This document shows positions 189 through 55,301 of a stretch of DNA of 64,000 nt, piece by piece. How positions within the stretch are numbered: the first letter of the stretch is position 1; every line of letters begins with the position of its first letter. The notes below the pieces were generated by a model. The model was not told the DNA's origin. It ran no database searches and saw nothing but the letters and a program-made list of their open reading frames with translations. A program made the translations under genes and the position numbers. The stretch is from a virus, in the UHGV virus genome UHGV-0096064, one strand, 5' to 3'.

Positions 189-3100
189 TTGGTGGGTATA
201 GTCATGCAACAGAATATCTTCCAGTCTCCAGCATCTCAAATCTCACCAACTGTTTGGCAGACCGCTGTCAACTTCCTGCGGCTGGTCTTGCCTACGGGCG
301 TGGGGTTCTACAGCACCTCCTCGGTGGGGGCGAACCCCGGCTCGTGGCGAGACCAGCCGCATGCCAACATCGAGTCGATGGCCCAAACGGTGCTCTCGCT
401 CTCGGCGCAGCAATGCAACACCTACTTCGCCATGTCCGGCTTCCGTGAAGGACTCCATGAAGAACAGAAGCCGAACGGGAAGACGGCTACAGTCTTCCGC
501 ACGCAGGCCAACGCCATAGCGCAGCGTTGCCTCTGGCTCGACATCGACTGCGGGAAGGCGAACAGCGTCTATCCCAACGATGTCGCCGCCATCAATGCGC
601 TTACAAATTTCCTCAAGCAGACGGGACTCCCTCTTCCTGTCGTCGTCAGCTCCGGCCACGGCCTCCATCTCTACTGGCCTTTCATGGAGTCCGTAAGCAC
701 CACGCAGTGGCTGCAAATGGCCGGGATGCTCAAGTCCCTCTGCACCCACTTCCAGTTCGACGCCGACCACAGCCGGACGATGGATGCCGCCAGCGTCCTG
801 CGCGTGCCCGGCACCTACAACTACGACTTCAAGGGCAAGTATGACGGGCAGCCCAAGCTGTGCCGCATCCTCATCCTGCCCAAGACCATATACCATGTGC
901 TGGATATTGCCGGGACTCTGGTCAAGGCCATCAAGTCCAACCGGATAGCCCCGGCTACCTATACGTCGCCGCGCTCCACCTATCCTCTCCCGTCCGTAGG
1001 AGCCGTGCCTCCCGCTCCCGAAGGGCTGTCCTTCGTCGGGATGGAGGAAGCCTTCAACGGGCCGAAGCGTCATCCCTTCCAGATTATCAGGAAGTGCCGC
1101 CAGATTCAGCAAGCGGGCCTTGGGACGTACACCCAATGGTACAACATGATGCTGGTCATGAAGCACTGCGCCTTCGGCGAGCAGGCCGTCCACGACATCT
1201 CGAAGATGGACAAGGTGCGCTACGACTACAACAACACCCAGACGAAGCTGACGCAGGCCATTGAGGGCGGCTACGGGCCGTGCCGCTGCGACACCTTCAA
1301 CGAGAAAGACCCCGGCATCTGCCAGTCGTGTCCTTTCTGGGGGAAGATTACCTCCCCCCTCCAGTTGGGCGACCCGTATGTGGAACGCAAGCCTGTGAAG
1401 CTGGTCGCCGCCGATGTGAACAGCGACTCGCCCGTGGTCACGGCGTCCCCCTGCGCTCCCGTCATGGAGGTCATGCCCTTCAACAATCAGGAGTTCTCGG
1501 TCGTCCCCGGCAAGGGCGTCATCTGGCACAAGAAGACGCTCGTGTCCGCAGCCGAAGCCGGGGCCAACGATGATGAAGACCACTACATCACCAAGGACAT
1601 CCTCATTTGCGATGTGGAAATTTATGTCCATAGCGTCTGCATTGACGACACCGGGCCGGACTTGCAGCGCAGCTACCTCGTGCGCAAGCAGGCTCCGGGG
1701 AAGGCACCGGAAGAACTGCGGCTTAACGTGACCTCGGACTTGGGAACGCAGAAGCTCTGGAACTGGCTGGCGAACAATGCGATGCTGCCTGTACACCCCC
1801 GTTACAACAAGCAGTTGAGTGACTTTATGAGCACATATCTAGCGTCCATTCAGAACAAGCTGCCGGAAGTTTTTGTCCGCGACACGTTCGGTTGGGTGAC
1901 GAACCATGACGGCGTGACTGGAGAGTCCTATCCCGGCTTCATCGTCGGGCCTGAGATGTTCACGTCCCGTGGCGTCAAGCCTGTCAAGCTCACGCCCCGC
2001 GCCGCACAGGTGGCCGAGTCCTTCTCCCGTGTCGGGAATCTGGAGAAGTGGAAGATGGTACCGCAGATGTACCGCATCCTCGAACAACCCTTCTCTCAGC
2101 TCATGATGCTGACCGGGTTTGGCGCTCCGTTTATGAAGAACGGCGTCGGCACGGCCACCAACGTGGCCTACTCCCTCTGGGATGTGAAGGGCGGGAAGGG
2201 CAAGTCCACCGTCCTTGAAGCCGTCTCCAGCATATGGGGCTGCCCGAAGCATCTCCTCCAGACGAAGAACGATACCGTCTCGTCCCGTTTCCAGAAGTAC
2301 GCGGTTCACAAGAACCTGCCCATCTTCATCGACGAGGTGACGAACATCAGGGAAGCCGACCTCTCCGACCTTATCTACGACATCGTGAACGGACGGGAAA
2401 AGAGCCGTTCGCTTGGCTCCGGTACGGCGCTGGCCCGCTCCGGGTCATGGTCGACCACGACTCTGTTCACCTCGAACAAGTCTCTTTACGAGATGCTCAA
2501 GAGCAGCCACATCCAGTCTGACGCCACCTGCATGCGCGTGGTCGAGCACCAGTGCGACTTCAAGGACTATACGGGCACGCCCTACCAGAAGTACATCGCC
2601 AGCGTGCAGAACGTGATGCACACCAACTATGGGCTCGCTGGCCCGGCGTTCCTCCAGTATTGTTTCGACCATCCCGAAGTGATGGACGAGATTACCCATA
2701 AGGCCAAGGCTTTCGCCCAGACCTATACCGTCCAGTCCGACGAACGGTTCTGGATGTACGGCATCGGCATCCCGCTGGCGGCTGGTGAAATCGCCGTCCG
2801 CGCCGGACTCATCGACTACGACATCCCGTACCTGCGCGAGTGGTGCGTCAAGGTGCTCCTGCCCTCGCTCCGCGAAAAGATTCGCGACACGAAGTCCAGC
2901 GGCGACAACCTGCTGTCCGAGTTCCTCAACGAGAACATCAGCCACACCCTGTCCGTGAGCTCGGCCAAGCGCCCCTCCAGCCAGAAAGACCCCGGCATCC
3001 AGTCCGGCCTCGACACCTACGTCAAGTTTTACCCGGTCGGCGCTCTCTATATCCGCCACGAACAGGACACGAACACCTACTACGTCAGCACGAAGCGGCT

Positions 3101-3278
3101 GCAATACTGGTGCCGGGACAACCGAATCTCGATGGACGTCATGCTTCAAGAGCTGCGGAACAAGGGCGTCTACCAGAAGAACGACAAGATTCAATACGCC
3201 CTCGGCAAGTGGGTGTCGGCTCTTGACCATAGCAGGTCGACGGTCTTCCGGTTCGTCATCCCGCAGGATAAGGAATAG
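189..3278 (+). CDS. DNA primase-helicase (AEP prim-pol domain + P4/D5-type SF3 helicase)
   Basis: 1029 aa. N-terminal region has the AEP primase-polymerase signature (LWLDIDCG ... SSGHGLHLYWPF). C-terminal region has a P4-alpha-type Walker A (DVKGGKGKST). This arrangement is common in phage and plasmid primases. Confidence 0.8.
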   Translation: MVGIVMQQNIFQSPASQISPTVWQTAVNFLRLVLPTGVGFYSTSSVGANPGSWRDQPHANIESMAQTVLSLSAQQCNTYFAMSGFREGLHEEQKPNGKTATVFRTQANAIAQRCLWLDIDCGKANSVYPNDVAAINALTNFLKQTGLPLPVVVSSGHGLHLYWPFMESVSTTQWLQMAGMLKSLCTHFQFDADHSRTMDAASVLRVPGTYNYDFKGKYDGQPKLCRILILPKTIYHVLDIAGTLVKAIKSNRIAPATYTSPRSTYPLPSVGAVPPAPEGLSFVGMEEAFNGPKRHPFQIIRKCRQIQQAGLGTYTQWYNMMLVMKHCAFGEQAVHDISKMDKVRYDYNNTQTKLTQAIEGGYGPCRCDTFNEKDPGICQSCPFWGKITSPLQLGDPYVERKPVKLVAADVNSDSPVVTASPCAPVMEVMPFNNQEFSVVPGKGVIWHKKTLVSAAEAGANDDEDHYITKDILICDVEIYVHSVCIDDTGPDLQRSYLVRKQAPGKAPEELRLNVTSDLGTQKLWNWLANNAMLPVHPRYNKQLSDFMSTYLASIQNKLPEVFVRDTFGWVTNHDGVTGESYPGFIVGPEMFTSRGVKPVKLTPRAAQVAESFSRVGNLEKWKMVPQMYRILEQPFSQLMMLTGFGAPFMKNGVGTATNVAYSLWDVKGGKGKSTVLEAVSSIWGCPKHLLQTKNDTVSSRFQKYAVHKNLPIFIDEVTNIREADLSDLIYDIVNGREKSRSLGSGTALARSGSWSTTTLFTSNKSLYEMLKSSHIQSDATCMRVVEHQCDFKDYTGTPYQKYIASVQNVMHTNYGLAGPAFLQYCFDHPEVMDEITHKAKAFAQTYTVQSDERFWMYGIGIPLAAGEIAVRAGLIDYDIPYLREWCVKVLLPSLREKIRDTKSSGDNLLSEFLNENISHTLSVSSAKRPSSQKDPGIQSGLDTYVKFYPVGALYIRHEQDTNTYYVSTKRLQYWCRDNRISMDVMLQELRNKGVYQKNDKIQYALGKWVSALDHSRSTVFRFVIPQDKE

Positions 3279-31540: not shown

Positions 31541-34500
31541 TTACTTGAACCGGATGAGGGCCGCAGCTGCAGTCTGGTTCGTGTTACCGGACACGCTAAT
31601 CTTCACAGCCTTGCCAGCCAGCGCGGAGATGGCGGTGGCGCGGGTGCCAATCGTCACCGCAGAACCCGAAGAGAACTCAGGCTCAATGGAGAACGTCAGC
31701 GCATTGGCCCCGGCACCGTCCGCTTCCTTGGCGATAAGCTGCACCGTGGAGCGATCACCCGGAATGAAGGTGTGGATGATCGGAATCGTAGCACTGGACT
31801 CGAAGGTGTAGTACAGCGGCATGTCGGCATAATCAGCCGCATCCACAGCATTCGTGACCTGAGTCTTCAGCCAATCCGCATTCACAGACACCCCGGCAGC
31901 TTCCACCTTGATACCGCCGTTGACCTTGGCATTCACCGCCACAGACTTGGTGCCCGTACCGGAGATGGTCACACCGTTCCCGGCGGCCACCTTATCGCCC
32001 GTGTCCACGTTTTCCGCCAACCATGTGGTGTTGACGGAGATACCGCGGGCGTCGACGGTGATACCACCATCGGCCTTAGCCTTGGCAGTGATGGTCTTCG
32101 TGGTCGTACCGGAAATGATCACACCGTTCCCGGCGGCTACCTTGTCGCCAGTATCCACGTTTTTAGCCAGCCAATCGACGCTGACCGAGATACCCGTGGA
32201 GTCGACCAGAATACCGCCGTCCGGCTTCGCCTTGGCAGCCACGGTCTTCGTCCCGGTTCCGGTCAGGGTGATGCCGTTGCCAGCCGTAACCTTGTCGCCG
32301 ACCTTACCGGCCAGCCAAGATGCATCGACATAAACACCACTGGCATCGACCACGAGACCACTGGCAGCCTTCACCTTGACGGTAATCGTCTTAGTGTCAG
32401 TACCCTTAACGATCACACCGTTACCCGCAGCGACCTTGTCCCCGGCGGTAGTATGTTTGGCAAGCCATGCGGCATCAACAGAGACACCCGTTTCATCAAC
32501 GACAATGCCGCCGTCAGTTTTGGCCTTGACTTGGAAAGTCGAAAGCGCCAGTTCAAGACCATCACCCGCTTCATAATCACGCACATGCTTCTTGAAGAAG
32601 CTATACGTGATAATAGCCTCATTAATGGGATTCTGAGGCGTCATCGGCGCGACACCGTAAGGTGAAGGTGTATCTCGCAATTCCGTAAAAATAGGAAGCA
32701 CAACACCGAGAGAAGCCACTTGGTCATCCGCAGCTCCCTGAACAATATTCATCAGGATAGTGTGGTCTGTGGGAGAGACATTATGGCTAATGCTGGACAG
32801 CAACTTGCCGCCACCAACCCCGTAAGTCGTAACCAGATTGGCCCGGCCTGTTTCCTTAGTCAGAGCCGAACTCACCACAGCAATATGCTGAGTAATAGTC
32901 CCGTCCTGATTCAGCTTACCAGTAAAAGCCTTAAGGTCGGCAATGGTCTGATCACCGGAAGTACGGACAACCGTATCATCCACGGCGATGCCAGCGGCAG
33001 CCACCTCGATACCGTCACCCGCCTTGGCGGAGATAGTATCGGAAGCAATGGCAATACCATTGCCAGCCTTGTAGTTGCTGGCCGCATGCTCAGACAGCCA
33101 CTCGGTGTCCACGGAGATGCCGTCAGCGTCCACGATGATGCCGCCCTCAGCCTTGGCCTTGGCCGCAACCGTCTTGTTCGTCCCGTTCGCCGTGATGGAC
33201 ACGCCGTTACCAGCGACCACGGTGTCACCGCCAGCATGGTCTTTCAACCACTCCTCGTCGATGAACACGCCGTTCTCGTTGACGATAAGGCCGCCATCAG
33301 CACCCGGCTTCACGGAAATGTTTTTGGTGGTATCTTGATCAACGATGGTAACACCGCTACCAGCGGAAACGATGTCACCCTTGTCATGCTGCGCCAGCCA
33401 GTCCGTATCAATGTGGAGGCCATAGCTGTCGACCAACAGGCCCGCATCCAGCTTGACCTTGGCGTTGATGGTGGTGGTGGTGTCAGTCTCGGCACTGAAA
33501 CTGATACCGTCGCCCGGCTTGTACTCCATCACCTTGGGCAAATCGTCGGCAGACAGGTACGCACCCTTGTCAGAGCCTACGTTGATGAGGTTGCCCTCAT
33601 CACTGGAGACCACGTTGACGGTGAACTTCCCTTCGGAGTCGAACGTCAGAGCGTTTTCCTCGTCTTTGGTGGACACCATCGTCGACATATCGACACTCAG
33701 CTCATCAGCTTCGGTGAAGCTCAGGTGTCCATCAGCGGCAGCCTTCACGGAAATCTTGAACCCGTTGAAGATGATACCGTTGCCAGCGACATAATCGCCG
33801 CCCAAGCAGTGTTCCTCAATCCACTTCTCGTCGATGTAAACGCCGGAATCGTCGATGAGGATACCGCCAGCATCCTTCGGCTTGACCGCGATGGACTTGG
33901 CATCCTCGCCCTCGGTCACGGTAATGCCGAGACCAGCGTCGACCTTGTCGCCAAGCTGAGGCGTGAGCCACTCGGTGTCCACACCCACGCCATTCTCGCC
34001 GACAGTCAGGCCGCCTTCGGGGTCAACCTTAACGGAAACGGTCGCATCAGAACCGGACAGGGAGACGTTGATACCATCCCCGGCCACAGGTTTCGGCGCA
34101 TGTTCGCCAAGCCACTCCTCATCCACATAAACGCCATCGGCATCGGTACGGATACCGCCGCCAGCTTTCGTCTTCGTGGCAACGCCATCGGCGTCCTTGC
34201 GCAGACCCCCAAGGGGATTCAGCTTCACGGCCAGACCACCCTGAGAACCTTCGGAAGAGGCACCAGCGGCGAGGCACTCAAGGCCGGACGTGTTGTCGTT
34301 GGCGGCGGTCAAGTCCATCTTCACGGCGATAGTCTTGACGAACTCGTCATCCCCAGTAAGGGCGATACCACAACCCGCCTGAACCTTGTCGGAACGCTTG
34401 GCGAGCCAGTCCTCATCAATACTCAGACCATTGGCCGCGTTGCACAGGATACCACCGTCTTCATGGAGACGGACGATAATCTGCTTCCCGTCCATCTCGA

Positions 34501-42938: not shown

Positions 42939-42948
42939 ATATATATAT
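42939..42948. repeat. (AT)5 dinucleotide repeat upstream of LRR2 start
   Basis: atatatatat lies 23-32 nt upstream of the SD-preceded ATG (42914-42916) on the minus strand. Confidence 0.6.
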
Positions 42949-42992
42949 GGGGATTCAGTCAAAGAGCGACGCCATGTGAGGTCAGGAGGGGA

Positions 42993-44708
42993 CTACTTCC
43001 AGTCGTCAGGAATGTCGGCGTAGTTGGTCAACTTGCTGCAATTTCTGAAACATTTAGTTCCATTGGCGTCAGGATGAGTGACCCACAAGTCGGGAGCTGT
43101 TCCAACCAGCTTGTAACAATTCTCGAATATCTGGTGGAAATCCTTGATATTCGGATTGTTCACGAAGAGGTTCGTTGGCAGCGTCGTCAAATTGGTGCAT
43201 CCATTAAACATCATCTCCACGTCATCCAGAGCAGGATTGTTGTCAAACAACCCTTCCGGGATGGCACCCTCCAACGTGTTCAAACTATAGAAAGCGTAAG
43301 CCAAATTCTTTAACTTGGGGTTGTTGGCGAACAGCTTGGCGGGAATGGAGCCGTTGAAATCACAACCGTAGAACACGCTGTCGAGATACGTTAGCTCCGG
43401 GCAATTGGCAAAAAGATTCTCAGGAATGGGGCCGTTCAAATTGCATACCCTGAACAAACCGGAAAAAATCTCGGCAAGCGGGTTATGAGCGAACAACCCT
43501 TCCGGAATGGGGCCCACCAAACCATCACAACCATAGAAACAGCCGGAGAAGTTCGTCACTTCGGGGCAATTGGCAAAAAGGTTTTCAGGGATAGTTCCTG
43601 TGAGTCCCTCGCAGAACCGGAAGGTATCCGAAAACGTCTGCACCTTCGTGCAATTGGCAAAGAAGTTCTCAGGAATGGCACCAGTGAGCTTCTCACATTC
43701 ATAGAACGTCGCCTCGAAAGAAATAACTTCGGGGCAATTGGCGAACAAACCCGCAGGCAGGGAACCCGTCAGGCCCTTGCAACCGTAGAATGCAGAGACA
43801 AAGGTACCCGCCTTCCGGTTATTGGCGAAAAGATTCTCAGGAATGGAGCCAGTGATATTTTCGTCAAAATAGAACAATCGGTCAAAAGTGTAAGCTATGG
43901 TGTTGTGGGCAAAAAGGTTTTCAGGGATAGGCCCTGTCAATCCAGGGCAGTGGCTGAATACATAGGCGAACGATGTCACATTGGGATTGTTGGCGAAGAG
44001 ATTCTCAGGAATTTCAGTCAGTCCCTCACAACCATTGAACACGCTGTCAAACTTGTAAACTTTTGGACAATTGGCAAAAAGGTTTTCAGGGATAGACGTG
44101 ATATTTTCACAGCTATAGAATGTGGAAGCAAACGACTCGACCTTGGTGTTCTTGGTGAAAAGGTCTTCGGGAAGCGCACCCGTAAGTCCAAGACAATAAT
44201 AGAACGTATTTTCAAAAGTGGTGGCGTCTACGTTTTTGTAGAATATGCCTTTAGGAACCTGCGTCAACTTCTTGCAACTATAAAAGGCATAAGCAAGTCC
44301 GTCATGCCGGAAAACAGGCAGCGAATAGGACTCGGCACCCTTGGGGCCAATCCCGATAAGAGTTCTTCTATAGACATTCCATTCACTCTGGTTGATGTCA
44401 TAACCATGCAACTTGCAGACGCTGAAATCATCAGCGTAAACAGTCACAGTATATTCGCCGGGGGTGGCATAGTCATGCGTGGAATATTTATCCCAATACT
44501 GTGAATAAAACTCCGTACCCTTGGGAATTTCGGAAATTGAACCATCACCCCAATCAATAGTAATTGCCGTCAGGGATTGCTCATCAAGACCAAAGCTATT
44601 GAATGAATATACTGGAACCACAAACTCGGTATCACCCTCGTTGGTGGCCTCGGTATTTATAAGAAAGATAAGGCTTTCACGCGGCTCATTGTCACGATAA
44701 CCATACAT
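42993..44708 (-). CDS. LRR (BspA-like) repeat protein, paralog 3 (571 aa)
   Basis: About 18 LRR_5-type repeats (FxxCxxLTGxIPExLFANxP.V..F). Start refined to the MYGYRDNEP ATG with AAAGGAGA upstream. The track ORF extends a further 234 nt upstream. Confidence 0.7.
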   Translation of the reverse strand: MYGYRDNEPRESLIFLINTEATNEGDTEFVVPVYSFNSFGLDEQSLTAITIDWGDGSISEIPKGTEFYSQYWDKYSTHDYATPGEYTVTVYADDFSVCKLHGYDINQSEWNVYRRTLIGIGPKGAESYSLPVFRHDGLAYAFYSCKKLTQVPKGIFYKNVDATTFENTFYYCLGLTGALPEDLFTKNTKVESFASTFYSCENITSIPENLFANCPKVYKFDSVFNGCEGLTEIPENLFANNPNVTSFAYVFSHCPGLTGPIPENLFAHNTIAYTFDRLFYFDENITGSIPENLFANNRKAGTFVSAFYGCKGLTGSLPAGLFANCPEVISFEATFYECEKLTGAIPENFFANCTKVQTFSDTFRFCEGLTGTIPENLFANCPEVTNFSGCFYGCDGLVGPIPEGLFAHNPLAEIFSGLFRVCNLNGPIPENLFANCPELTYLDSVFYGCDFNGSIPAKLFANNPKLKNLAYAFYSLNTLEGAIPEGLFDNNPALDDVEMMFNGCTNLTTLPTNLFVNNPNIKDFHQIFENCYKLVGTAPDLWVTHPDANGTKCFRNCSKLTNYADIPDDWK

Positions 44709-44738
44709 ATTGGTTCTCCTTTTTGTCCTTTCTATACA

Positions 44739-44748
44739 AGAGAGAGAG
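44739..44748. repeat. (AG)5 dinucleotide repeat upstream of LRR3 start
   Basis: agagagagag lies ~31-40 nt upstream of the ATG at 44706-44708 (minus strand). Confidence 0.55.
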
Positions 44749-45255
44749 CTGGCAAGGACTGGAGCGGGACAGGGTGTGGGCCGGGAACTGGACTGGAAAT
44801 TTCTCCGAAAAAATTTTGGAGGGGGTGAATGCTGTGGATTCAGACGGGGGTCAACGAAGCCCCCACCCCCCCTCGGACTGGACTCATCTACGAACTCGGC
44901 GTCGACGGTGTCGCGCAATGTAGGTTGGCACAGGAATTGCATAGGAAAAGTTGCTCGAAGTCGCGAGCGTTCCTATATATGGAGTGGCCGGGGCGCGCCA
45001 AGTCCTTCGTCCAAATCCCCCGCCGGGCCGTCCCTACCCTCGACGCCCTCGACGCCCTCGACGCCCTCCCGCCCGCCTCACTCCATCACCTTGATGAAGC
45101 GGCCTGACGCGCCGCCTGCTCCACGTTCGCGGCTCATCCCTACCTTATATATACCCTGACCTTTTCGCCGCAAGCTGACGCGCTTCCCGTCCTGCTATGT
45201 CATCAGCTCCATCCAGTCCCGCCAGTCCCGCCAGTCCTACCAGACAACCAAGTGC

Positions 45256-45548
45256 ACAATGTAATATCAACAAACCTATATTACATTGTTACCTACACTG
45301 TAGTATTACACTGTTACAGGTGTTATATTGTAGCATTACACTGTAACGCGCAATGTACTTTTACAATGTAACACCTGTTACAATGTAATGTTATTGTAAA
45401 TTACATTGCACACTTGCTTACATTGTTATGGCATTGTTTTTTACATTGTTGCAGGTGTTACATTGTTTTTTACAATGTAAGTTACACTGTAAGTGTAATT
45501 ACATTGCATGTAACATTGCGTCGCGCAATGTAAATTTTTACAATGTAA
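45256..45548. repeat. dense array of 11-bp palindrome TTACAnTGTAA (about 17 copies in 300 bp; about 24 in 45250-46250) - putative iterons/operator array
   Basis: For example TTACAATGTAA at about 45361, 45378, 45470, 45538, 45817; TTACATTGTAA at about 45686 and 46119; TTACACTGTAA at about 45336 and 45482. Includes a perfect 12-bp IR ACAATGTAATAT-N10-ATATTACATTGT at 45256-45289. Confidence 0.75.
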
Positions 45549-45571
45549 TTACACACAGCGCGGGTTCCTTA

Positions 45572-45589
45572 TTGATAATGGATTATCAA
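45572..45589. promoter_or_regulatory. perfect palindrome TTGATAAT-GG-ATTATCAA (operator-like)
   Basis: 8-bp arms with a 2-bp spacer, immediately followed by CTTGCAACTTTTGCAA. Confidence 0.5.
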
Positions 45590-45752
45590 CTTGCAACTTT
45601 TGCAAAAAACGAGATTCCGTAAGTTGTTGAATTTGTTGACCCGGAAAAATTTTCGCAAACCCCAAAAAGTGGTGAAAAAATTACACAGGGAGAAAGTTAC
45701 ATTGTAAAAACGGGGACGAACGGGAGGACAGGAAGAGTAGAAAAATCAAGGG

Positions 45753-45811
45753 TTTATATATATTATTTTTTAAAAAAGAATAAAATATATATATGTACTA
45801 TGTAACTTTTT
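45753..45811. other. AT-rich stretch (~59 bp, 3-4 G/C) - candidate DNA-unwinding element
   Basis: tttatatatattattttttaaaaaagaataaaatatatatatgtactatgtaactttttacc in an otherwise ~60% GC genome. Flanked by iteron-like repeats. Confidence 0.45.
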
Positions 45812-46429
45812 ACCCCCTTACAATGTAACGGCCTATCCTAGTCGGCAAAAATGCAAAATGCTTTTTTCCAAATCGCCGAACTTGATTGTGAAAATTTTCA
45901 CCACTCAGGCGGCCTCGATTTACATAAGCTGCTATGTAACTTTTTGCGGAACCCCCCAAAAAAAACTTGCAAATTTGCATACCCCCTTGAAAATCAGCGT
46001 AACACTTCAACGATTTCAACAACTTGCAACCAATTTTAAAATGCAAGTGAATTTTTTCACACTTGCAACTAGTTGGAATATATTAGGATACATCTTGCAA
46101 GTCAATTTGCAACCCCATTTTTACATTGTAAAAAGTAAAATCGTGTTACTCGTTTACATTGCGCAACACCGTCGACGCCGCCTTACACTGCATAACGCAA
46201 TGTAAAAACAATGCAACAATCCTCACTATGTAATTACATTGTTCTGCCCCTTGTCCAGTTCTGAGCGCGACACACGCGACGCCGTCCCCAAGTCCTGAGC
46301 TCCGCCCTGTCGCCTCTGCCTTCCGAATCCGGTTTCACTATCCCCAATAATCCAGTTCACCTTAACATCTTGATATTCCTACTCAATCCAGTTCAACAAA
46401 AATAATTCCGAAAATTTTCGCTACAACTC

Positions 46430-46458
46430 TTGACAACATTTCAGTAACTCCTTATCTT
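46430..46458 (+). promoter_or_regulatory. sigma70-like promoter TTGACA-N17-TATCTT for the early operon
   Basis: TTGACA at 46430-46435 and TATCTT at 46453-46458, ~85 nt upstream of the first early gene (46544). Confidence 0.45.
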
Positions 46459-46543
46459 GGCATCAACAACGGCGAACAACGCCGCCGGTTGCTACCGTAG
46501 CAACCCGATAACTTCACCTAATCCTATTCAAAGGAGTTCCCCA

Positions 46544-46894
46544 ATGGCTATGAGCTTTATGCTTTCCGTCCAGTCCACGTTCGCGCCTGAGCCCATTACG
46601 GGCATCGTCAAGGGTGATCTTGTCGTCTACCATCATGACGGCACGGTTGTCGCCGTCTATCACAAGGGCTCTGTCCTGTTCGCTCCGGTCTATTCGGATT
46701 CCCATATCGAGGCCGTGAACTTCTTGATGCACCTGTTCGCCATCCCCTTTTTTGTCCGGAACATGAACGGGACGAACTGGATAACGTCCCGGCTCACGGG
46801 GGAAACCCGGTATACCGTGAAGCCATACCTTGTCGCTCTTGCCGACTATCAGCTTGAGTTCCTCGACAACCTTGAAGCAATCGTCAACGCGTGA
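46544..46894 (+). CDS. small early protein, paralog family member P1
   Basis: 116 aa. ATG preceded by AAGGAG. Weakly shares a Y.G..(V/I)A.Y core with the downstream paralogs. Confidence 0.5.
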   Translation: MAMSFMLSVQSTFAPEPITGIVKGDLVVYHHDGTVVAVYHKGSVLFAPVYSDSHIEAVNFLMHLFAIPFFVRNMNGTNWITSRLTGETRYTVKPYLVALADYQLEFLDNLEAIVNA

Positions 46895-53983: not shown

Positions 53984-54427
53984 ATGTCTGACTATCGTGA
54001 AATGGCTCTGGACTTCATGAACAAGCAGGCTACCATTCGTGAAATGACTCCCGCCGAATACGTCGCCGGGGTTAAGGAAGCCGAGAAGCAGTTCGAGCTG
54101 CTCGATCAGGTCGAGGAGGAATCCTCTGACCAGACCATGCTCGTCGCTGACCCCGCCACTGCCATCAAGGAACGCACCATCACTTGCTGCTGCTGCGGGA
54201 ACCAGTACCGCCTGCTGACCCGCAAGCACCTTGCCAGCCACGGGTTGGACTATGAACAATACCGCCAGCTTTGCGGCTACAAGCCTGACCTTCCCCTTAT
54301 CGCCAAGTCCTTGCAGCGTGAGCGCCGCAACCGCATGCGCGAGATGCGCCTGTGGCAGAAGAAGGAAGGCGCTCAGGGTCATGAGCAGGCTCAGGTTCTC
54401 CCCAAGCCCAAGGCTTTAGAGGACTAG
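53984..54427 (+). CDS. Ros/MucR-family zinc-finger transcriptional regulator
   Basis: ERTITCCCCGNQYRLLTRKHLASHGLDYEQYRQLCGYKPDLPLIAKSLQRERRNRMREM aligns with the Ros/MucR core ([56 protein letters not shown]). Confidence 0.65.
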   Translation: MSDYREMALDFMNKQATIREMTPAEYVAGVKEAEKQFELLDQVEEESSDQTMLVADPATAIKERTITCCCCGNQYRLLTRKHLASHGLDYEQYRQLCGYKPDLPLIAKSLQRERRNRMREMRLWQKKEGAQGHEQAQVLPKPKALED

Positions 54428-54437
54428 GAGGCTGGTC

Positions 54438-55301
54438 ATGGAACAGCAAGAACTTGAACAGCGGATAGTCCAGTTGGAGGCTACCGTAAACGCTCTGGTC
54501 ACGCAGTTCCTTCCCCCCGTCACGGAACGGCTCGCCGCCTTGGAACGCATCGTCCGGGTTATCAAGCCGGAAGGGACAGAGGGAGAGGAGAAGCCAGCGG
54601 CTGAACCGCGCAAGCGTTCCGCCCTGTCCTACCGGATGTACCAGATGGTGAAGCTCCTGCATGAGCAGGGCGCTCCCGTGAAGGAAATCGTCAGTCGGTG
54701 CGACTTGCCCTATACGACCGTGCGGGCGTACATCAATCTCTCTCCCGAACGTGTCGAGCAGCTTCGGCAGAAGCAGGAGAAGAAGGATGCGGAAGCGGCG
54801 GAACGTGCGCTGCGTGCGATGCGCAAGCAGGCGAAAGAGATGGGCAACGACATGCCCGTACCTCCTCCGCCCGCTGGTGCCGATGCTGACGTGGACGCTC
54901 CGGCTGGCGTGGTGGTAGGCACGGTCGACCCGAAGACGCCTCGTGAGGAGGCGTATGTGGCGGCCCAGAACCAGTCCGTCCTGTCTGCCGAGGGGACGCT
55001 CGCCAACCCCACGGTGGCGGCGGAACCCGTGCCGACCGAGGCCGTAGCCGAGGACAGCTATCAGGTCGAGTGCCCCCGTTCGATGGAGCCCTACGGTTCC
55101 GCCGGATGGTATGACTGGACGCATGAGCTGCGGACGTTCGCTCAGTCTCACCAGTTCCCCGATGGGTTCCCTCGTTTCTATCCCGTCGACAGGGGTACGC
55201 TGGTCTACGTCCAGTACATGAACGAGCAGGTGGAGCCGACGCCTGTCGCCGCTGGCGCGGTCGATTGGGCCTTCTCCGTACTGCGTTGGAAGTTGGTATA
55301 G
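54438..55301 (+). CDS. HTH-containing putative transcription regulator
   Basis: Leu-zipper-like N-terminus. HTH-like YRMYQMVKLLHEQGAPVKEIVSRCDLPYTTVRAYIN. Poly-Pro/Ala linker. Confidence 0.45.
   Translation: MEQQELEQRIVQLEATVNALVTQFLPPVTERLAALERIVRVIKPEGTEGEEKPAAEPRKRSALSYRMYQMVKLLHEQGAPVKEIVSRCDLPYTTVRAYINLSPERVEQLRQKQEKKDAEAAERALRAMRKQAKEMGNDMPVPPPPAGADADVDAPAGVVVGTVDPKTPREEAYVAAQNQSVLSAEGTLANPTVAAEPVPTEAVAEDSYQVECPRSMEPYGSAGWYDWTHELRTFAQSHQFPDGFPRFYPVDRGTLVYVQYMNEQVEPTPVAAGAVDWAFSVLRWKLV

What the first reader, a model, noticed from the sequence alone, without database searches (positions are those of the whole stretch)
45180..46543. 1.35-kb non-coding hub packed with ~24 copies of the palindrome TTACAnTGTAA: candidate replication origin or master regulatory region
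This non-coding region lies between the minus-strand late/accessory block and the plus-strand early block. Its dominant feature is an 11-bp palindrome TTACA(A/T/C)TGTAA repeated about 24 times. About 17 copies sit within 45250-45550, some overlapping or spaced 7-23 bp apart. At 45256-45289 a perfect 12-bp inverted repeat, ACAATGTAATAT-N10-ATATTACATTGT, is built from the same half-sites. In a ~60% GC genome this density of AT-rich dyads cannot be explained by coding constraints, because nothing here is coding. An iteron/operator array beside the first early genes is the classical signature of a phage origin. It could also be a binding platform for one of the phage-encoded DNA-binding proteins, for example the Ros/MucR homologue at 53984 (Ros/MucR proteins prefer AT-rich DNA in GC-rich genomes), or a pac site.
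Basis: partly seen in the sequence, partly recalled or inferred. Interest (0 to 1): 0.8.

Follow-up and report, generated by a model that had tools for sequence, protein, structure and literature searches.

The report
Probable replication origin of gut phage
A 1.8-kb gene-free stretch of a human-gut phage carries about two dozen copies of an 11-base palindrome around the most A+T-rich spot of the genome, and because the same palindrome forms the origin repeats of many unrelated phages, this is most likely the phage's replication origin and control region, though the protein that reads it is unidentified.

Summary
TTACANTGTAA occurs 9 times exactly (0.01 expected), and 24 of the 27 copies with up to 2 mismatches lie in 45254-46244. 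The gene-free hub is larger than reported: 44709-46543, between the first late gene (minus strand) and the first early gene (plus strand) of a ~64.2-kb gut podophage.

The sites lie on both sides of a 45-bp, 96% A+T tract, the most A+T-rich spot of the window. A relative with 50% PolA identity (L101) has the same layout with a TACANTGTA core.

The same palindrome lies inside ten replisome-organiser genes of unrelated (pro)phages, read in different frames. That is the position of the SPP1 gene-38 origin repeats. This phage has no replisome organiser. It has a SaPI-Rep-like primase-helicase, a conserved coiled-coil/HTH protein (54438-55301) and a Ros/MucR homologue.

Best reading: an iteron-type origin inside a control hub that also holds a unique sigma-54-type promoter and a sigma-70-like early promoter (confidence 0.45). 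Rivals are an operator or silencing platform, a packaging or terminus region, and an iteron decoy. A specific Ros/MucR link and GC skew are not supported. Nothing was tested experimentally.

The parts
44709..46543 (.). Whole gene-free hub between the first late gene (571 aa, minus strand, start 44708) and the first early gene (ATG 46544)
   Evidence: Public gene calls, ORF lists, sequence. No Rfam or tRNA match. It holds the two lowest-GC 300-bp windows of the window.
44926..44941 (+). Sigma-54-type promoter consensus TGGCACAGGAATTGCA, pointing into the array. A CAATGTA half-motif lies 3 bp upstream.
   Evidence: The only perfect TGGCAC-N5-TTGCW in 64 kb (0.09 expected). It is kept in L085. 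Relatives have the same element in the same place and orientation: L101 three times (0.07 expected) and L090 once.
44900..44922 (.). Left arm of a 23-nt long-range inverted repeat (partner 46155-46177) that brackets the array and the A+T tract
   Evidence: the repeat finder I3, 96% complementary, 1232 nt between the arms. L085 carries the matching substitution in both arms.
46155..46177 (.). Right arm of the 23-nt long-range inverted repeat
45037..45068 (.). GC-rich tandem repeat, CCCTCGACG x 3.6. A second one, CCAGTCCCG x 2.8, lies at 45213-45237.
   Evidence: TRF. Relatives have longer micro- or minisatellites at the same side of the hub.
45254..45548 (.). Dense array: 16 copies of TTACANTGTAA with up to 2 mismatches (6 perfect), nearly abutting
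   Evidence: Includes the perfect 12-bp inverted repeat at 45256-45289 and a 40-bp higher-order unit at 45371-45448.
45621..45639 (.). AAGTTGTTGAATTTGTTGA, left arm of an inverted repeat (partner 46007-46025) that flanks the A+T tract
   Evidence: the repeat finder I13. Similar words are found in L101 (561-582) and L090.
45697..45707 (.). Perfect TTACATTGTAA about 45 bp left of the A+T tract
45753..45797 (.). A+T tract (2 G+C in 45 bp), candidate DNA-unwinding element
   Evidence: The most A+T-rich 45-mer of the window; the next lowest has 10 G+C. It aligns with an equivalent tract in L101 at 666-743. L117 has a TATATA tract abutting the same palindrome.
45795..45828 (.). GTACTATGTAA and the perfect TTACAATGTAA (45818) directly right of the A+T tract, within the block cttttaccccCTTACAATGTAAC
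   Evidence: L101 has tttttaccccTTTTTACAATGTACA at the corresponding place.
45588..46115 (.). Second and third motif families. (A)ACTTGCAA(C)/TTTGCAA occurs about 8 times. A4T4-type palindromes (GGAAAAATTTTCG, GTGAAAATTTTCAC, GTGAATTTTTTCAC) occur here, with further copies at 44803 and 46409.
   Evidence: k-mer enrichment: TTGCAA 7 in the hub against 0.5 expected; AAAATTTTC 5 in the hub and 0 elsewhere.
46121..46244 (.). Right-hand cluster of the palindrome: perfect at 46121, degenerate at 46183, 46223 and 46234, plus TTTACATTGCG at 46153
46430..46458 (+). Sigma-70-like early promoter TTGACA-17-TATCTT. A CGAAAATTTTCG palindrome precedes it. Two hairpins and the Shine-Dalgarno sequence AAAGGAG follow, before ATG 46544.
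   Evidence: Promoter scan and sequence. This is a consensus match only.
54438..55301 (+). Candidate trans-acting binder gp287: N-terminal coiled coil, three-helix HTH and a conserved C-terminal domain. It lies between Ros/MucR and PolA.
   Evidence: Conserved in all relatives examined. 6 of 7 members give weak HTH_23, sigma-70 region 4 or GerE matches. The single-sequence AF2 model gives a long helix at 3-41 and helices at 65-99 with pLDDT 85-92. Foldseek gives only generic HTH matches, E > 0.1.
53984..54427 (+). Ros/MucR zinc-finger homologue, an alternative binder or nucleoid-type partner
   Evidence: Pfam PF05443, 5.9e-25. Conserved in L089, L090, L091, L101 and L149; an HU homologue takes its place in L092.
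204..3278 (+). Primase-helicase (DUF927, D5/SF3-like), the candidate replicative helicase loaded at the origin
   Evidence: Pfam DUF927 8.5e-16 and PHROG primase/helicase families. Its helicase part matches SaPI Rep structures 8tch and 5dgk (E 3.7e-4 and 1.9e-3).

Best explanation
The hub is the phage's cis-acting control region, and the TTACANTGTAA array is an iteron-type origin of replication.

Proposed mechanism:
1. A dimeric, sequence-specific protein coats the nearly abutting palindromes in the 300-bp dense array (45254-45548), the flanking sites at 45697, 45795 and 45818, and the right-hand cluster (46121-46244).
2. The resulting nucleoprotein complex melts the 45-bp A+T tract (45753-45797) that lies between these site groups.
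3. The phage's SaPI-Rep/P4-alpha-like primase-helicase is loaded there.
4. Transcription entering from the sigma-54-type promoter at 44926 and/or the sigma-70-like early promoter at 46430 may help opening. The same hub also drives early gene expression.

The most likely reader of the palindrome is the conserved coiled-coil + HTH protein gp287 (54438-55301). Ros/MucR would act as an A+T-binding architectural partner.

What is shown: the motif statistics and layout, the A+T tract, conservation of the layout in a distant relative, use of the identical palindrome as the internal repeats of replisome-organiser genes elsewhere, and the gene content.

What is inferred: that replication starts here, which protein binds, and any role of the promoters.
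For: 1. Exclusivity and density. 9 exact copies against 0.01 expected. 24 of 27 degenerate copies lie in 1 kb. The half-site is 37-fold denser in the hub.

2. Architecture. Sites lie on both sides of the most A+T-rich 45 bp of the window, 2 G+C against 10 or more anywhere else. This is the 'repeats + A+T-rich unwinding element' layout described for SPP1 oriL and oriR (PMC6316719).

3. The identical palindrome, found by DNA pattern alone, lies inside ten Phage_rep_org_N replisome-organiser genes from IMG/VR contigs and from Clostridia and Prevotella MAGs. It sits at residues about 120-190, directly after the N-terminal DNA-binding domain, and is read in different frames (LQCN/LHCN or YNVT). Selection is therefore on the DNA, as expected of origin repeats within the initiator gene.

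4. Conservation. L101/L150 (PolA 50% identical) has a ~1.27-kb hub upstream of its first early gene. 13 of 22 TACANTGTA matches with up to 1 mismatch fall in 7% of that locus. It has an aligned A+T tract, and the block ttttacccc-(N)-TACAATGTA follows the tract. The partial L090 hub and the unrelated L117 show the same syntax.

5. It is the only large repeat-rich non-coding region of the genome.

6. The phage encodes an SF3/D5-type primase-helicase related to SaPI Rep. From my own knowledge, not checked in the papers read here, the characterised relatives of that helicase start replication at repeats that flank an A+T-rich segment.

7. Both gene blocks point away from the hub and converge at about 3.3-4.7 kb. 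All genes would therefore be co-oriented with forks leaving the hub.
Against: - There is no experimental or read-coverage evidence.
- No replisome organiser is encoded: hmmsearch, hhalign against 39 non-structural proteins (all at or below 1% probability) and tblastn against the whole window found none. The known reader of this repeat is therefore absent, and the proposed reader gp287 is only an HTH protein by weak matches.
- In SPP1, and by my own knowledge in lambda, SaPI and P4, the origin lies in or next to the initiator gene. Here the primase gene is about 22 kb away and gp287 about 8 kb away.
- 24 sites over 1 kb is several times more than the 3-5 copies seen in the replisome-organiser genes here.
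- GC skew does not show an origin-type switch.
- The same palindrome serves as a centromere site, a MatP site, an operator and a terminase-proximal repeat in other systems.
- Sites gain and lose matches between 98%-identical genomes, so single sites are not strongly constrained.
- The cultured distant relative KPP25 has only a 328-bp divergent gap.
Confidence: 0.45

Rival explanations
1. Operator or silencing platform. The palindromes are binding sites for a phage-encoded regulator (gp287 or Ros/MucR) or a host regulator. Binding coats the A+T-rich hub and switches early transcription off, and possibly late transcription on, as infection proceeds. It would act on the sigma-54-type promoter at 44926 and the sigma-70-like promoter at 46430.
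For: - The hub lies between divergent early and late blocks.
- A half-motif sits 3 bp upstream of the sigma-54 -24 element here, and a full site sits about 10 bp upstream of one in L101.
- The right-hand cluster lies 190-310 bp upstream of the early promoter.
- In L043 three copies of the same palindrome overlap a promoter between divergent genes, an operator-like arrangement.
- Ros/MucR proteins repress A+T-rich promoters by oligomerising (PMC9779718).
- Ros/MucR and gp287 sit in the middle/replication module. An HU homologue takes the place of Ros/MucR in L092, which suggests a nucleoid-protein role.
- L151 lacks Ros/MucR and shows no array in the 572 bp available.
Against: - The dense array is 900-1300 bp from the early start codon and more than 500 bp from the late start codon. 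No promoter-like site lies inside it other than weak consensus matches.
- 24 sites is far more than operators usually need.
- None of 24 loci that encode relatives of this Ros/MucR has the motif.
- This reading does not explain the conserved central A+T tract or the identity with origin repeats.
Confidence: 0.25
2. Packaging or terminus region. The hub contains the pac site or the physical genome ends (direct terminal repeat), and the palindromes are small-terminase binding sites.
For: - Contigs of relatives end in or beside the hub. L079 ends at about window 44872. The L090 contig ends 832 bp beyond the locus start. Two independent assemblies of the L101/L150 phage end within about 14 bp of each other. 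The L151 contig ends 572 bp upstream of its first early gene.
- In L013, L025 and L053, arrays of the same palindrome sit at contig starts directly upstream of small and large terminase genes.
- From my own knowledge, podophages such as T7 and N4 have their terminal repeats next to the early genes.
Against: - The breakpoints coincide with micro- or minisatellites, (GCTG)n and (CACAG)n with an N run, which break assemblies by themselves.
- Several contigs of this phage (63.6-64.2 kb) run through the hub and end at unrelated places.
- The terminase genes are about 14 kb away.
- KPP25 is deposited as a circular record.
- The three terminase-proximal arrays were selected by the pattern itself, so they say little about this phage.
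Confidence: 0.1
3. Orphan iteron array that exploits someone else's initiator. The array binds replisome-organiser proteins made by resident prophages, or a host DnaD-like protein. It either borrows them to start phage replication or soaks them up so that competing prophages cannot replicate.
For: - The palindrome is identical to the internal repeats of ten replisome-organiser genes. Several are from gut Clostridia MAGs (Ruminococcaceae, Acutalibacteraceae), a plausible host group.
- The phage itself has no such gene.
- The copy number, about 24, is far above the 3-5 copies seen in those genes, which would suit titration.
Against: - This is purely inferential and the host is unknown.
- Relatives use a shifted motif (GTACA in L101). 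That fits co-evolution with a phage-encoded reader better than dependence on an outside protein.
- Depending on a prophage would narrow the host range.
Confidence: 0.07
4. Partition centromere: a parS-like cluster bound by a ParB-type protein, as on Vibrio chromosome 2.
For: The parS2 consensus NTTTACANTGTAAAN contains the motif (PMC7022226). Vibrionaceae dominate the genome scan for triple sites.
Against: No ParA, ParB, ParM or TubZ was found among 37 non-structural proteins. The genome has the gene content of a lytic podophage. Only the site at 46121 matches the full 13-bp parS2 core.
Confidence: 0.03

Closest known systems
Origins inside replisome-organiser genes (SPP1 oriL in gene 38; the Phage_rep_org_N family)
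   Same: Multiple copies of an initiator-binding repeat next to an A+T-rich unwinding element (PMC6316719). Here even the repeat sequence is the same as in ten Phage_rep_org_N genes.
   Different: - The array is intergenic, not inside an initiator gene.
- No replisome organiser, DnaC-like loader or DnaB-type helicase was found in the phage.
- There are 24 irregularly spaced, partly degenerate sites rather than 3-5 regular repeats.
- The helicase is of the SF3/D5 type.
SaPI and P4 origins (Rep or alpha primase-helicase with repeats flanking an A+T-rich segment)
   Same: The phage encodes a DUF927 primase-helicase whose helicase part matches SaPI Rep structures. Binding sites lie on both sides of an A+T tract.
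   Different: In SaPI and P4 the origin adjoins or lies within the rep gene and the repeats are short direct repeats (my own knowledge, not checked here). In this phage the gene is about 22 kb from the hub and the sites are 11-bp palindromes. Binding by the primase-helicase is untested.
Vibrio cholerae chromosome 2 parS2 / ParB2 centromere
   Same: The palindrome core is the same: NTTTACANTGTAAAN (PMC7022226).
   Different: No ParA or ParB is encoded. parS2 sites are dispersed over a chromosome, not packed into 1 kb.
Ros box / MucR targets in alpha-proteobacteria
   Same: A Ros/MucR homologue is encoded. The hub is the most A+T-rich part of a GC-rich genome. TATATTACA at 45277 resembles a Ros-box arm (TATATTTCA/TGTAATATA; PMC9779718).
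   Different: The arms are in everted order and differently spaced. Ros/MucR proteins have low sequence specificity. 24 loci with relatives of this Ros/MucR lack the motif.
Promoter-plus-A+T-tract origins (T7 primary origin, T4 oriF/oriG)
   Same: One or two promoters (two in tandem in L101) point into a region with an A+T-rich tract.
   Different: The promoters here fit the host sigma-54 consensus, not a phage polymerase or middle-mode promoter. The comparison rests on my own knowledge of T7 and T4 and was not tested.
Sigma-54 promoters in phages (Pseudomonas phage YuA)
   Same: There is a precedent for a virulent phage with a sigma-54-like promoter (PMC10914365).
   Different: No enhancer-binding AAA+ activator was found in this phage. 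The palindrome array lies downstream of the promoter, not at the usual upstream enhancer position.

Membership tests
Iteron-type phage origin of the replisome-organiser class (SPP1 oriL type) | Several copies of a short initiator-binding repeat | tested here: met
   24 copies with up to 2 mismatches, 9 perfect. The sequence is identical to the repeats inside ten Phage_rep_org_N genes.
Iteron-type phage origin of the replisome-organiser class (SPP1 oriL type) | Adjacent A+T-rich unwinding element | tested here: met
   45753-45797 has 2 G+C in 45 bp, the minimum of the window, and sites flank it. Actual unwinding was not tested.
Iteron-type phage origin of the replisome-organiser class (SPP1 oriL type) | Cognate replisome organiser (Phage_rep_org_N) encoded, with the repeats inside or next to its gene | tested here: not met
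   No hit by Pfam, hmmsearch, hhalign (at or below 1% probability for 39 proteins) or tblastn on the window. The hub shows no recognisable remnant of such a gene.
Iteron-type phage origin of the replisome-organiser class (SPP1 oriL type) | Supports initiator-dependent replication | not testable with these tools
   Needs a plasmid replication assay or marker-frequency data.
SaPI/P4-type origin (SF3 primase-helicase initiator) | Rep/alpha-type primase-helicase encoded | tested here: met
   DUF927 8.5e-16. PDB 8tch and 5dgk (SaPI Rep), E 3.7e-4 and 1.9e-3.
SaPI/P4-type origin (SF3 primase-helicase initiator) | Repeats on both sides of an A+T-rich segment | tested here: met
   Sites at 45697 (left) and at 45795 and 45818 (right). 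The dense array and the right-hand cluster lie further out.
SaPI/P4-type origin (SF3 primase-helicase initiator) | Origin adjoins the rep gene | tested here: not met
   The primase gene is at 204-3278, about 22 kb from the hub on the circular map. No repeats lie beside it.
SaPI/P4-type origin (SF3 primase-helicase initiator) | The helicase's own DNA-binding domain recognises the repeats | not testable with these tools
   Needs a binding assay.
ParB-parS centromere (Vibrio parS2 type) | parS2 consensus NTTTACANTGTAAAN | tested here: inconclusive
   The 11-bp core is shared. Only the site at 46121 has both outer T and A.
ParB-parS centromere (Vibrio parS2 type) | ParB and a partner ATPase encoded | tested here: not met
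   No ParB or ParA family among 37 non-structural proteins at E <= 0.05.
Ros/MucR target site | Ros/MucR protein encoded and target A+T-rich with TA steps | tested here: met
   PF05443 5.9e-25. Hub GC is 31-42% against about 57%.
Ros/MucR target site | The motif travels with the protein across related phages | tested here: not met
   0 of 24 IMG/VR loci with relatives of this Ros/MucR (33-59% identity) have the motif or a comparable array within the flanks held, up to 10 kb on each side. Only the close gut relatives L101 and L090 have TACA-type arrays.
Sigma-54 promoter with enhancer | -24/-12 consensus TGGCAC-N5-TTGCW | tested here: met
   One perfect match in the window, at 44926. Conserved in L085, L090 and L101.
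Sigma-54 promoter with enhancer | Enhancer-binding AAA+ activator and upstream activating sites about 80-200 bp upstream | tested here: not met
   No Sigma54_activat family in the phage proteins scanned. The array lies downstream of the promoter. A host activator cannot be excluded.
pac/cos packaging site | Next to the terminase genes and/or at the physical ends | tested here: inconclusive
   The terminase is about 14 kb away. Contigs of relatives end beside the hub, but at microsatellites. No read data are available.

The most novel reading that the evidence does not exclude
The array is an 'orphan' set of origin repeats. It copies the binding sites of replisome-organiser proteins that temperate phages of gut anaerobes use at their own origins, yet the phage encodes no such protein. 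It would either borrow a resident prophage's or the host's initiator to start its own replication, or act as a sponge that starves competing prophages of their initiator. That would be origin mimicry used as a weapon between phages.
Probability: 0.08. Interest if true: 0.85.

Novelty: new variant of a known kind. Interest (0 to 1): 0.55.

Why it matters
If the hub is the origin, it gives a testable cis element and candidate trans factors (gp287, Ros/MucR, the SaPI-Rep-like primase-helicase) for an uncultured clade of ~55-66-kb human-gut podophages. Most of this clade's replication and early genes have no annotation.

It also shows that one 11-bp palindrome is reused as the origin repeat by many unrelated phages of gut anaerobes, inside replisome-organiser genes and regardless of reading frame. 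That makes it a useful marker for finding phage origins in metagenomes.

The uncoupling of these repeats from their usual initiator, together with conserved sigma-54-type promoters in front of the early region of a virulent-looking phage, raises two testable questions. Who reads the repeats? And why would a phage tie its early region to an activator-dependent sigma factor?

Tried and rejected
- blastn of the hub against 50,697 phage records: no match.
- Rfam and tRNA scans of the window: nothing.
- First early protein and the Kyano_Gp96-like protein as anchors for relatives: only near-identical hits.
- PolA and Ros/MucR single-protein scans of IMG/VR: nothing.
- All-against-all BLAST between window proteins and ORFs next to palindrome arrays in 78 IMG/VR loci: no shared protein.
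- Ros/MucR co-occurrence test: negative.
- ParA/ParB, sigma-54 activator and replisome organiser in the phage: not found.
- Hub as a decayed replisome-organiser gene: only the repeat-encoded peptides match, with stop codons.
- N4-type virion RNA polymerase as a reason for hairpin promoters: the 2516-aa protein has only an N-terminal PHROG match and no PDB hit, and 4-bp A+T stems are implausible hairpins. Rejected.
- DnaA boxes: none. GATC clusters: none. IHF consensus: two weak matches only.
- GC skew: uninformative or contrary.
- KPP25, the nearest cultured relative at 28% PolA identity: same gene layout, only a 328-bp divergent gap, nothing annotated there.
The single-sequence model resolves only the coiled coil and the HTH, and Foldseek gives generic HTH matches with E > 0.1.
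- The last contig look-up (P0024) returned an unrelated element.
- The hubs of L089, L091, L092 and L149 lie beyond the 10-kb flanks and could not be read.
Full report
**1. What the window is**

The window covers almost all of a ~64.2-kb phage genome. The phage was assembled repeatedly from human-gut metagenomes as contigs of 63.6-64.2 kb whose ends fall at unrelated places.

A minus-strand block holds the virion genes. These are a terminase, an adaptor/portal-like protein, internal virion proteins, a 2516-aa virion protein, a holin and LRR/Ig-type fibre proteins. A plus-strand block starts at 46544. It opens with orphan early genes and continues through NUDIX, Ros/MucR, PolA, a PD-(D/E)XK nuclease, an exonuclease, an SNF2 helicase and a DUF927 primase-helicase.

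The nearest cultured phages are Pseudomonas phages KPP25 and phiR18, at 28% PolA identity and with the same two-block layout. PolA homologues at 39-66% identity define an uncultured clade of ~55-66-kb phages.

**2. The observation**

- TTACANTGTAA occurs 9 times exactly. Shuffles give 0.01.
- With up to 2 mismatches there are 27 matches against 10.9 expected. 24 of them lie in 45254-46244.
- All 19 copies of TTACANTG in the window lie in the region.
- The half-site is 37-fold denser in the hub than elsewhere.
- 16 sites fill 45254-45548 at centre spacings of 12-39 bp.
- The left half-site is better kept than the right (18 against 12 perfect), and the centre base is never G.
- The 12-bp perfect inverted repeat at 45256-45289 is present.
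- Gene callers leave the stretch empty, and no RNA family or tRNA matches.
- The gene-free stretch is wider than reported, 44709-46543. The late gene begins at 44708 behind a good ribosome-binding site.

**3. Anatomy of the hub**

From left to right:

- GGACTGGA words and the short GC-rich tandem repeats CCCTCGACG and CCAGTCCCG.
- At 44926, the only perfect sigma-54-type promoter consensus of the window, TGGCAC-N5-TTGCA, pointing rightwards.
- The dense palindrome array.
- A stretch with two further motif families, ACTTGCAA/TTTGCAA and A4T4 palindromes such as GTGAAAATTTTCAC.
- A 45-bp tract with 2 G+C at 45753-45797, by far the most A+T-rich spot of the window. Perfect or near-perfect palindromes lie at 45697, 45795 and 45818.
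- A second cluster of palindromes at 46121-46244.
- A sigma-70-like promoter at 46430, two hairpins and the ribosome-binding site of the first early gene.

A 23-nt inverted repeat (44900-44922 and 46155-46177) brackets the array and the tract. In a 98%-identical genome, both arms carry the matching substitution.

**4. Conservation**

Near-identical contigs add little. The hub is 98% identical between the window and L085, against 99% for the flanks, and single sites gain or lose matches.

A relative with 50% PolA identity is informative. It is held as L101 in IMG/VR and as L150 in ENA. Upstream of its first early gene lies a ~1.27-kb non-coding hub with these features:

- 13 of 22 TACANTGTA matches with up to 1 mismatch fall in this 7% of the locus.
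- An A+T tract aligns with ours.
- The block tttttacccc-TTTTTACAATGTACA directly follows the tract, where ours reads ctttttaccccCTTACAATGTAAC.
- There are three perfect sigma-54 consensus sites, all pointing towards the early genes (0.07 expected).

The preferred half-site there is GTACA rather than TTACA, so the core TACANTGTA is kept while the outer base drifts.

L090 (57% PolA identity) shows a partial hub with TACA-rich palindromes and a perfect sigma-54 site about 100 bp upstream of its first gene. L117, which shows no protein similarity to the window or its relatives, has a 670-bp intergenic hub in which GTTACANTGTAAC abuts a TATATA tract.

**5. What the palindrome is elsewhere**

Literature and collection scans show that the motif alone is not diagnostic.

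- It is the core of Vibrio chromosome-2 parS2 (PMC7022226), of a Photorhabdus MatP site (PMC8669397) and of an antitoxin operator (PMC11610964).
- In IMG/VR it appears upstream of terminase genes at contig starts (L013, L025, L053), in the inverted terminal repeats of an element that carries a family-B DNA polymerase gene (L017), and over a promoter (L043).

The most telling result came from the genome scan for three adjacent copies. In Clostridia MAG contigs L161, L176 and L212 the array lies inside a Phage_rep_org_N replisome-organiser gene. In L161 a DnaC/IstB-like loader gene follows.

A profile built from these proteins then found homologues in seven further loci, which had been fetched only by the DNA pattern. 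In all ten loci the palindromes sit at residues about 120-190, directly after the N-terminal DNA-binding domain. They are translated as LQCN/LHCN in some genes and as YNVT in others. The repeat is therefore conserved at the DNA level.

Its position is that of SPP1 oriL, where direct repeats within gene 38, bound by gp38, lie next to an A+T-rich unwinding element (PMC6316719).

**6. Who could read it here**

The phage has no replisome organiser. Pfam, hmmsearch, hhalign against 39 non-structural proteins (all at or below 1% probability) and tblastn on the whole window all failed, and the hub shows no recognisable remnant of such a gene.

The recognisable or candidate DNA-binding proteins are these:

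- **The Ros/MucR homologue.** It is conserved in the close relatives, and an HU homologue takes its place in L092. None of 24 IMG/VR loci that encode relatives of it has the motif, so a motif-specific link is not supported. A role as an A+T-binding architectural protein remains plausible (PMC9779718).
- **gp287 (54438-55301).** It is conserved in every relative and lies between Ros/MucR and PolA. It has an N-terminal coiled coil, a three-helix HTH with weak sigma-70 region 4, LuxR or HTH_23 matches in 6 of 7 members, and a conserved C-terminal domain. Its putative recognition helix is nearly invariant (PYTTVRAY), which fits the conserved TACANTGTA core. This is inference only.
- **The primase-helicase.** Its helicase part matches SaPI Rep structures.

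**7. Weighing the explanations**

The origin reading (0.45) explains the most:

- the exclusive, dense and partly abutting sites;
- their position on both sides of the extreme A+T tract;
- conservation of that syntax across distant relatives;
- gene blocks that leave the hub in both directions.

Against it stand the missing cognate initiator, the distance to the primase gene, the large number of sites, an uninformative GC skew and the complete lack of functional data.

The regulatory-platform reading (0.25) is favoured by the position between early and late blocks, by sites next to the sigma-54 elements and by the Ros/MucR gene. It does not account for the central tract or the distance of the dense array from any start codon. 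The two readings are not exclusive.

The packaging or terminus reading (0.10) rests on contigs of relatives that end beside the hub. Those ends coincide with microsatellites, and contigs of this phage run through the hub.

A centromere is close to excluded (0.03).

The most novel reading not excluded (0.07-0.08) is that the array is an orphan copy of other phages' origin repeats, used to borrow or to soak up their initiator.

**8. Verdict**

This is a real and statistically extreme feature in a hub that is conserved within an uncultured gut-phage clade. It is best read as an iteron-type origin embedded in the early control region.

It is a new variant of a known kind. The repeat sequence and the 'repeats + A+T tract' logic are known. 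The differences are that the array is uncoupled from the usual initiator, several-fold expanded, intergenic and associated with sigma-54-type promoters.

Noticed in passing
window 44926-44941; L101 270, 311, 1206; L090 521: Perfect sigma-54-type promoters (TGGCAC-N5-TTGCW) are conserved at the edge of the hub and just upstream of the first early gene in relatives, always pointing towards the early genes. No enhancer-binding activator was found in the phage. Phage YuA is a published precedent (PMC10914365).
   Followed up: partly
window 44900-44922 and 46155-46177: A 23-nt inverted repeat brackets the array and the A+T tract. In the 98%-identical genome L085 both arms carry the matching substitution, so the arms evolve in concert. 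It could mark an invertible or looping unit. No inverted-orientation contig was seen among the assemblies read.
   Followed up: partly
L079 start; contig ends near L090 and L151; L101 pos 1 / L150: Four relatives' contigs end in or beside the hub, and two independent assemblies of one phage end within about 14 bp of each other. The ends coincide with (GCTG)n and (CACAG)n micro- or minisatellites left of the array. The window has short GC-rich 9-mer repeats at the same place.
   Followed up: partly
L161, L176, L212, L247, L001, L075, L073, L162, L249, L040: Ten replisome-organiser genes carry 2-5 GTTACANTGTAAC repeats directly after the N-terminal domain, translated as LQCN/LHCN or as YNVT depending on the frame and followed by acidic EIE/ETE repeats. 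This looks like a widespread internal origin type in (pro)phages of gut anaerobes.
   Followed up: partly
window 54438-55301 and homologues in L089-L092, L101, L149, L151: An unannotated protein family conserved next to PolA, with an N-terminal coiled coil, an HTH (motif PYTTVRAY) and a C-terminal domain with invariant tryptophans. It is a candidate initiator or regulator.
   Followed up: partly
L092 9417-9746 compared with window 53984-54427: In one relative an HU-type protein (Bac_DNA_binding) is encoded just upstream of PolA and no Ros/MucR gene is called in the locus. This suggests that the Ros/MucR homologue acts as a nucleoid-type protein in these phages.
   Followed up: no
whole window: GATC is strongly avoided (17 copies in 64 kb, none in the hub) and CTGCAG occurs once. 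This is consistent with selection against host restriction sites.
   Followed up: no
window 42948-44542 compared with L085: The fibre-like gene next to the hub is replaced by non-homologous sequence in an otherwise 99%-identical genome, a receptor-binding cassette swap.
   Followed up: no
window 46405-46418; L101 1145-1162; L090 438-455: An A4T4-type palindrome (CGAAAATTTTCG here, GTACAAAATTTTGTAC in relatives) sits directly upstream of the promoter of the first early gene in all three phages.
   Followed up: no
window 46467-46509: Two adjacent hairpins (cggcgaacaacgccg and ggttgctaccgtagcaacc) lie in the leader of the first early gene and are unchanged in L085.
   Followed up: no
window 31938-32299: A 150-bp tandem repeat (about 2.4 copies) lies inside the 1471-aa fibre-like gene.
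   Followed up: no
L163, L177, L181, L193, L207, L214-L216 (Hallella multisaccharivorax) and several Prevotella MAG loci: Many separate loci per genome carry three copies of the same palindrome at a 22-bp period. This is an unexplained dispersed repeat family in Prevotellaceae.
   Followed up: no
L089 1046-1056 and 1568-1578: Two small early ORFs of a relative end exactly in TTACANTGTAA, so the stop codon lies inside the palindrome.
   Followed up: no
L017 116-168 and 13655-13686: A 13.8-kb contig with inverted terminal repeats made of 21-bp units that contain the palindrome also encodes a family-B DNA polymerase. It looks like a protein-primed linear element.
   Followed up: no
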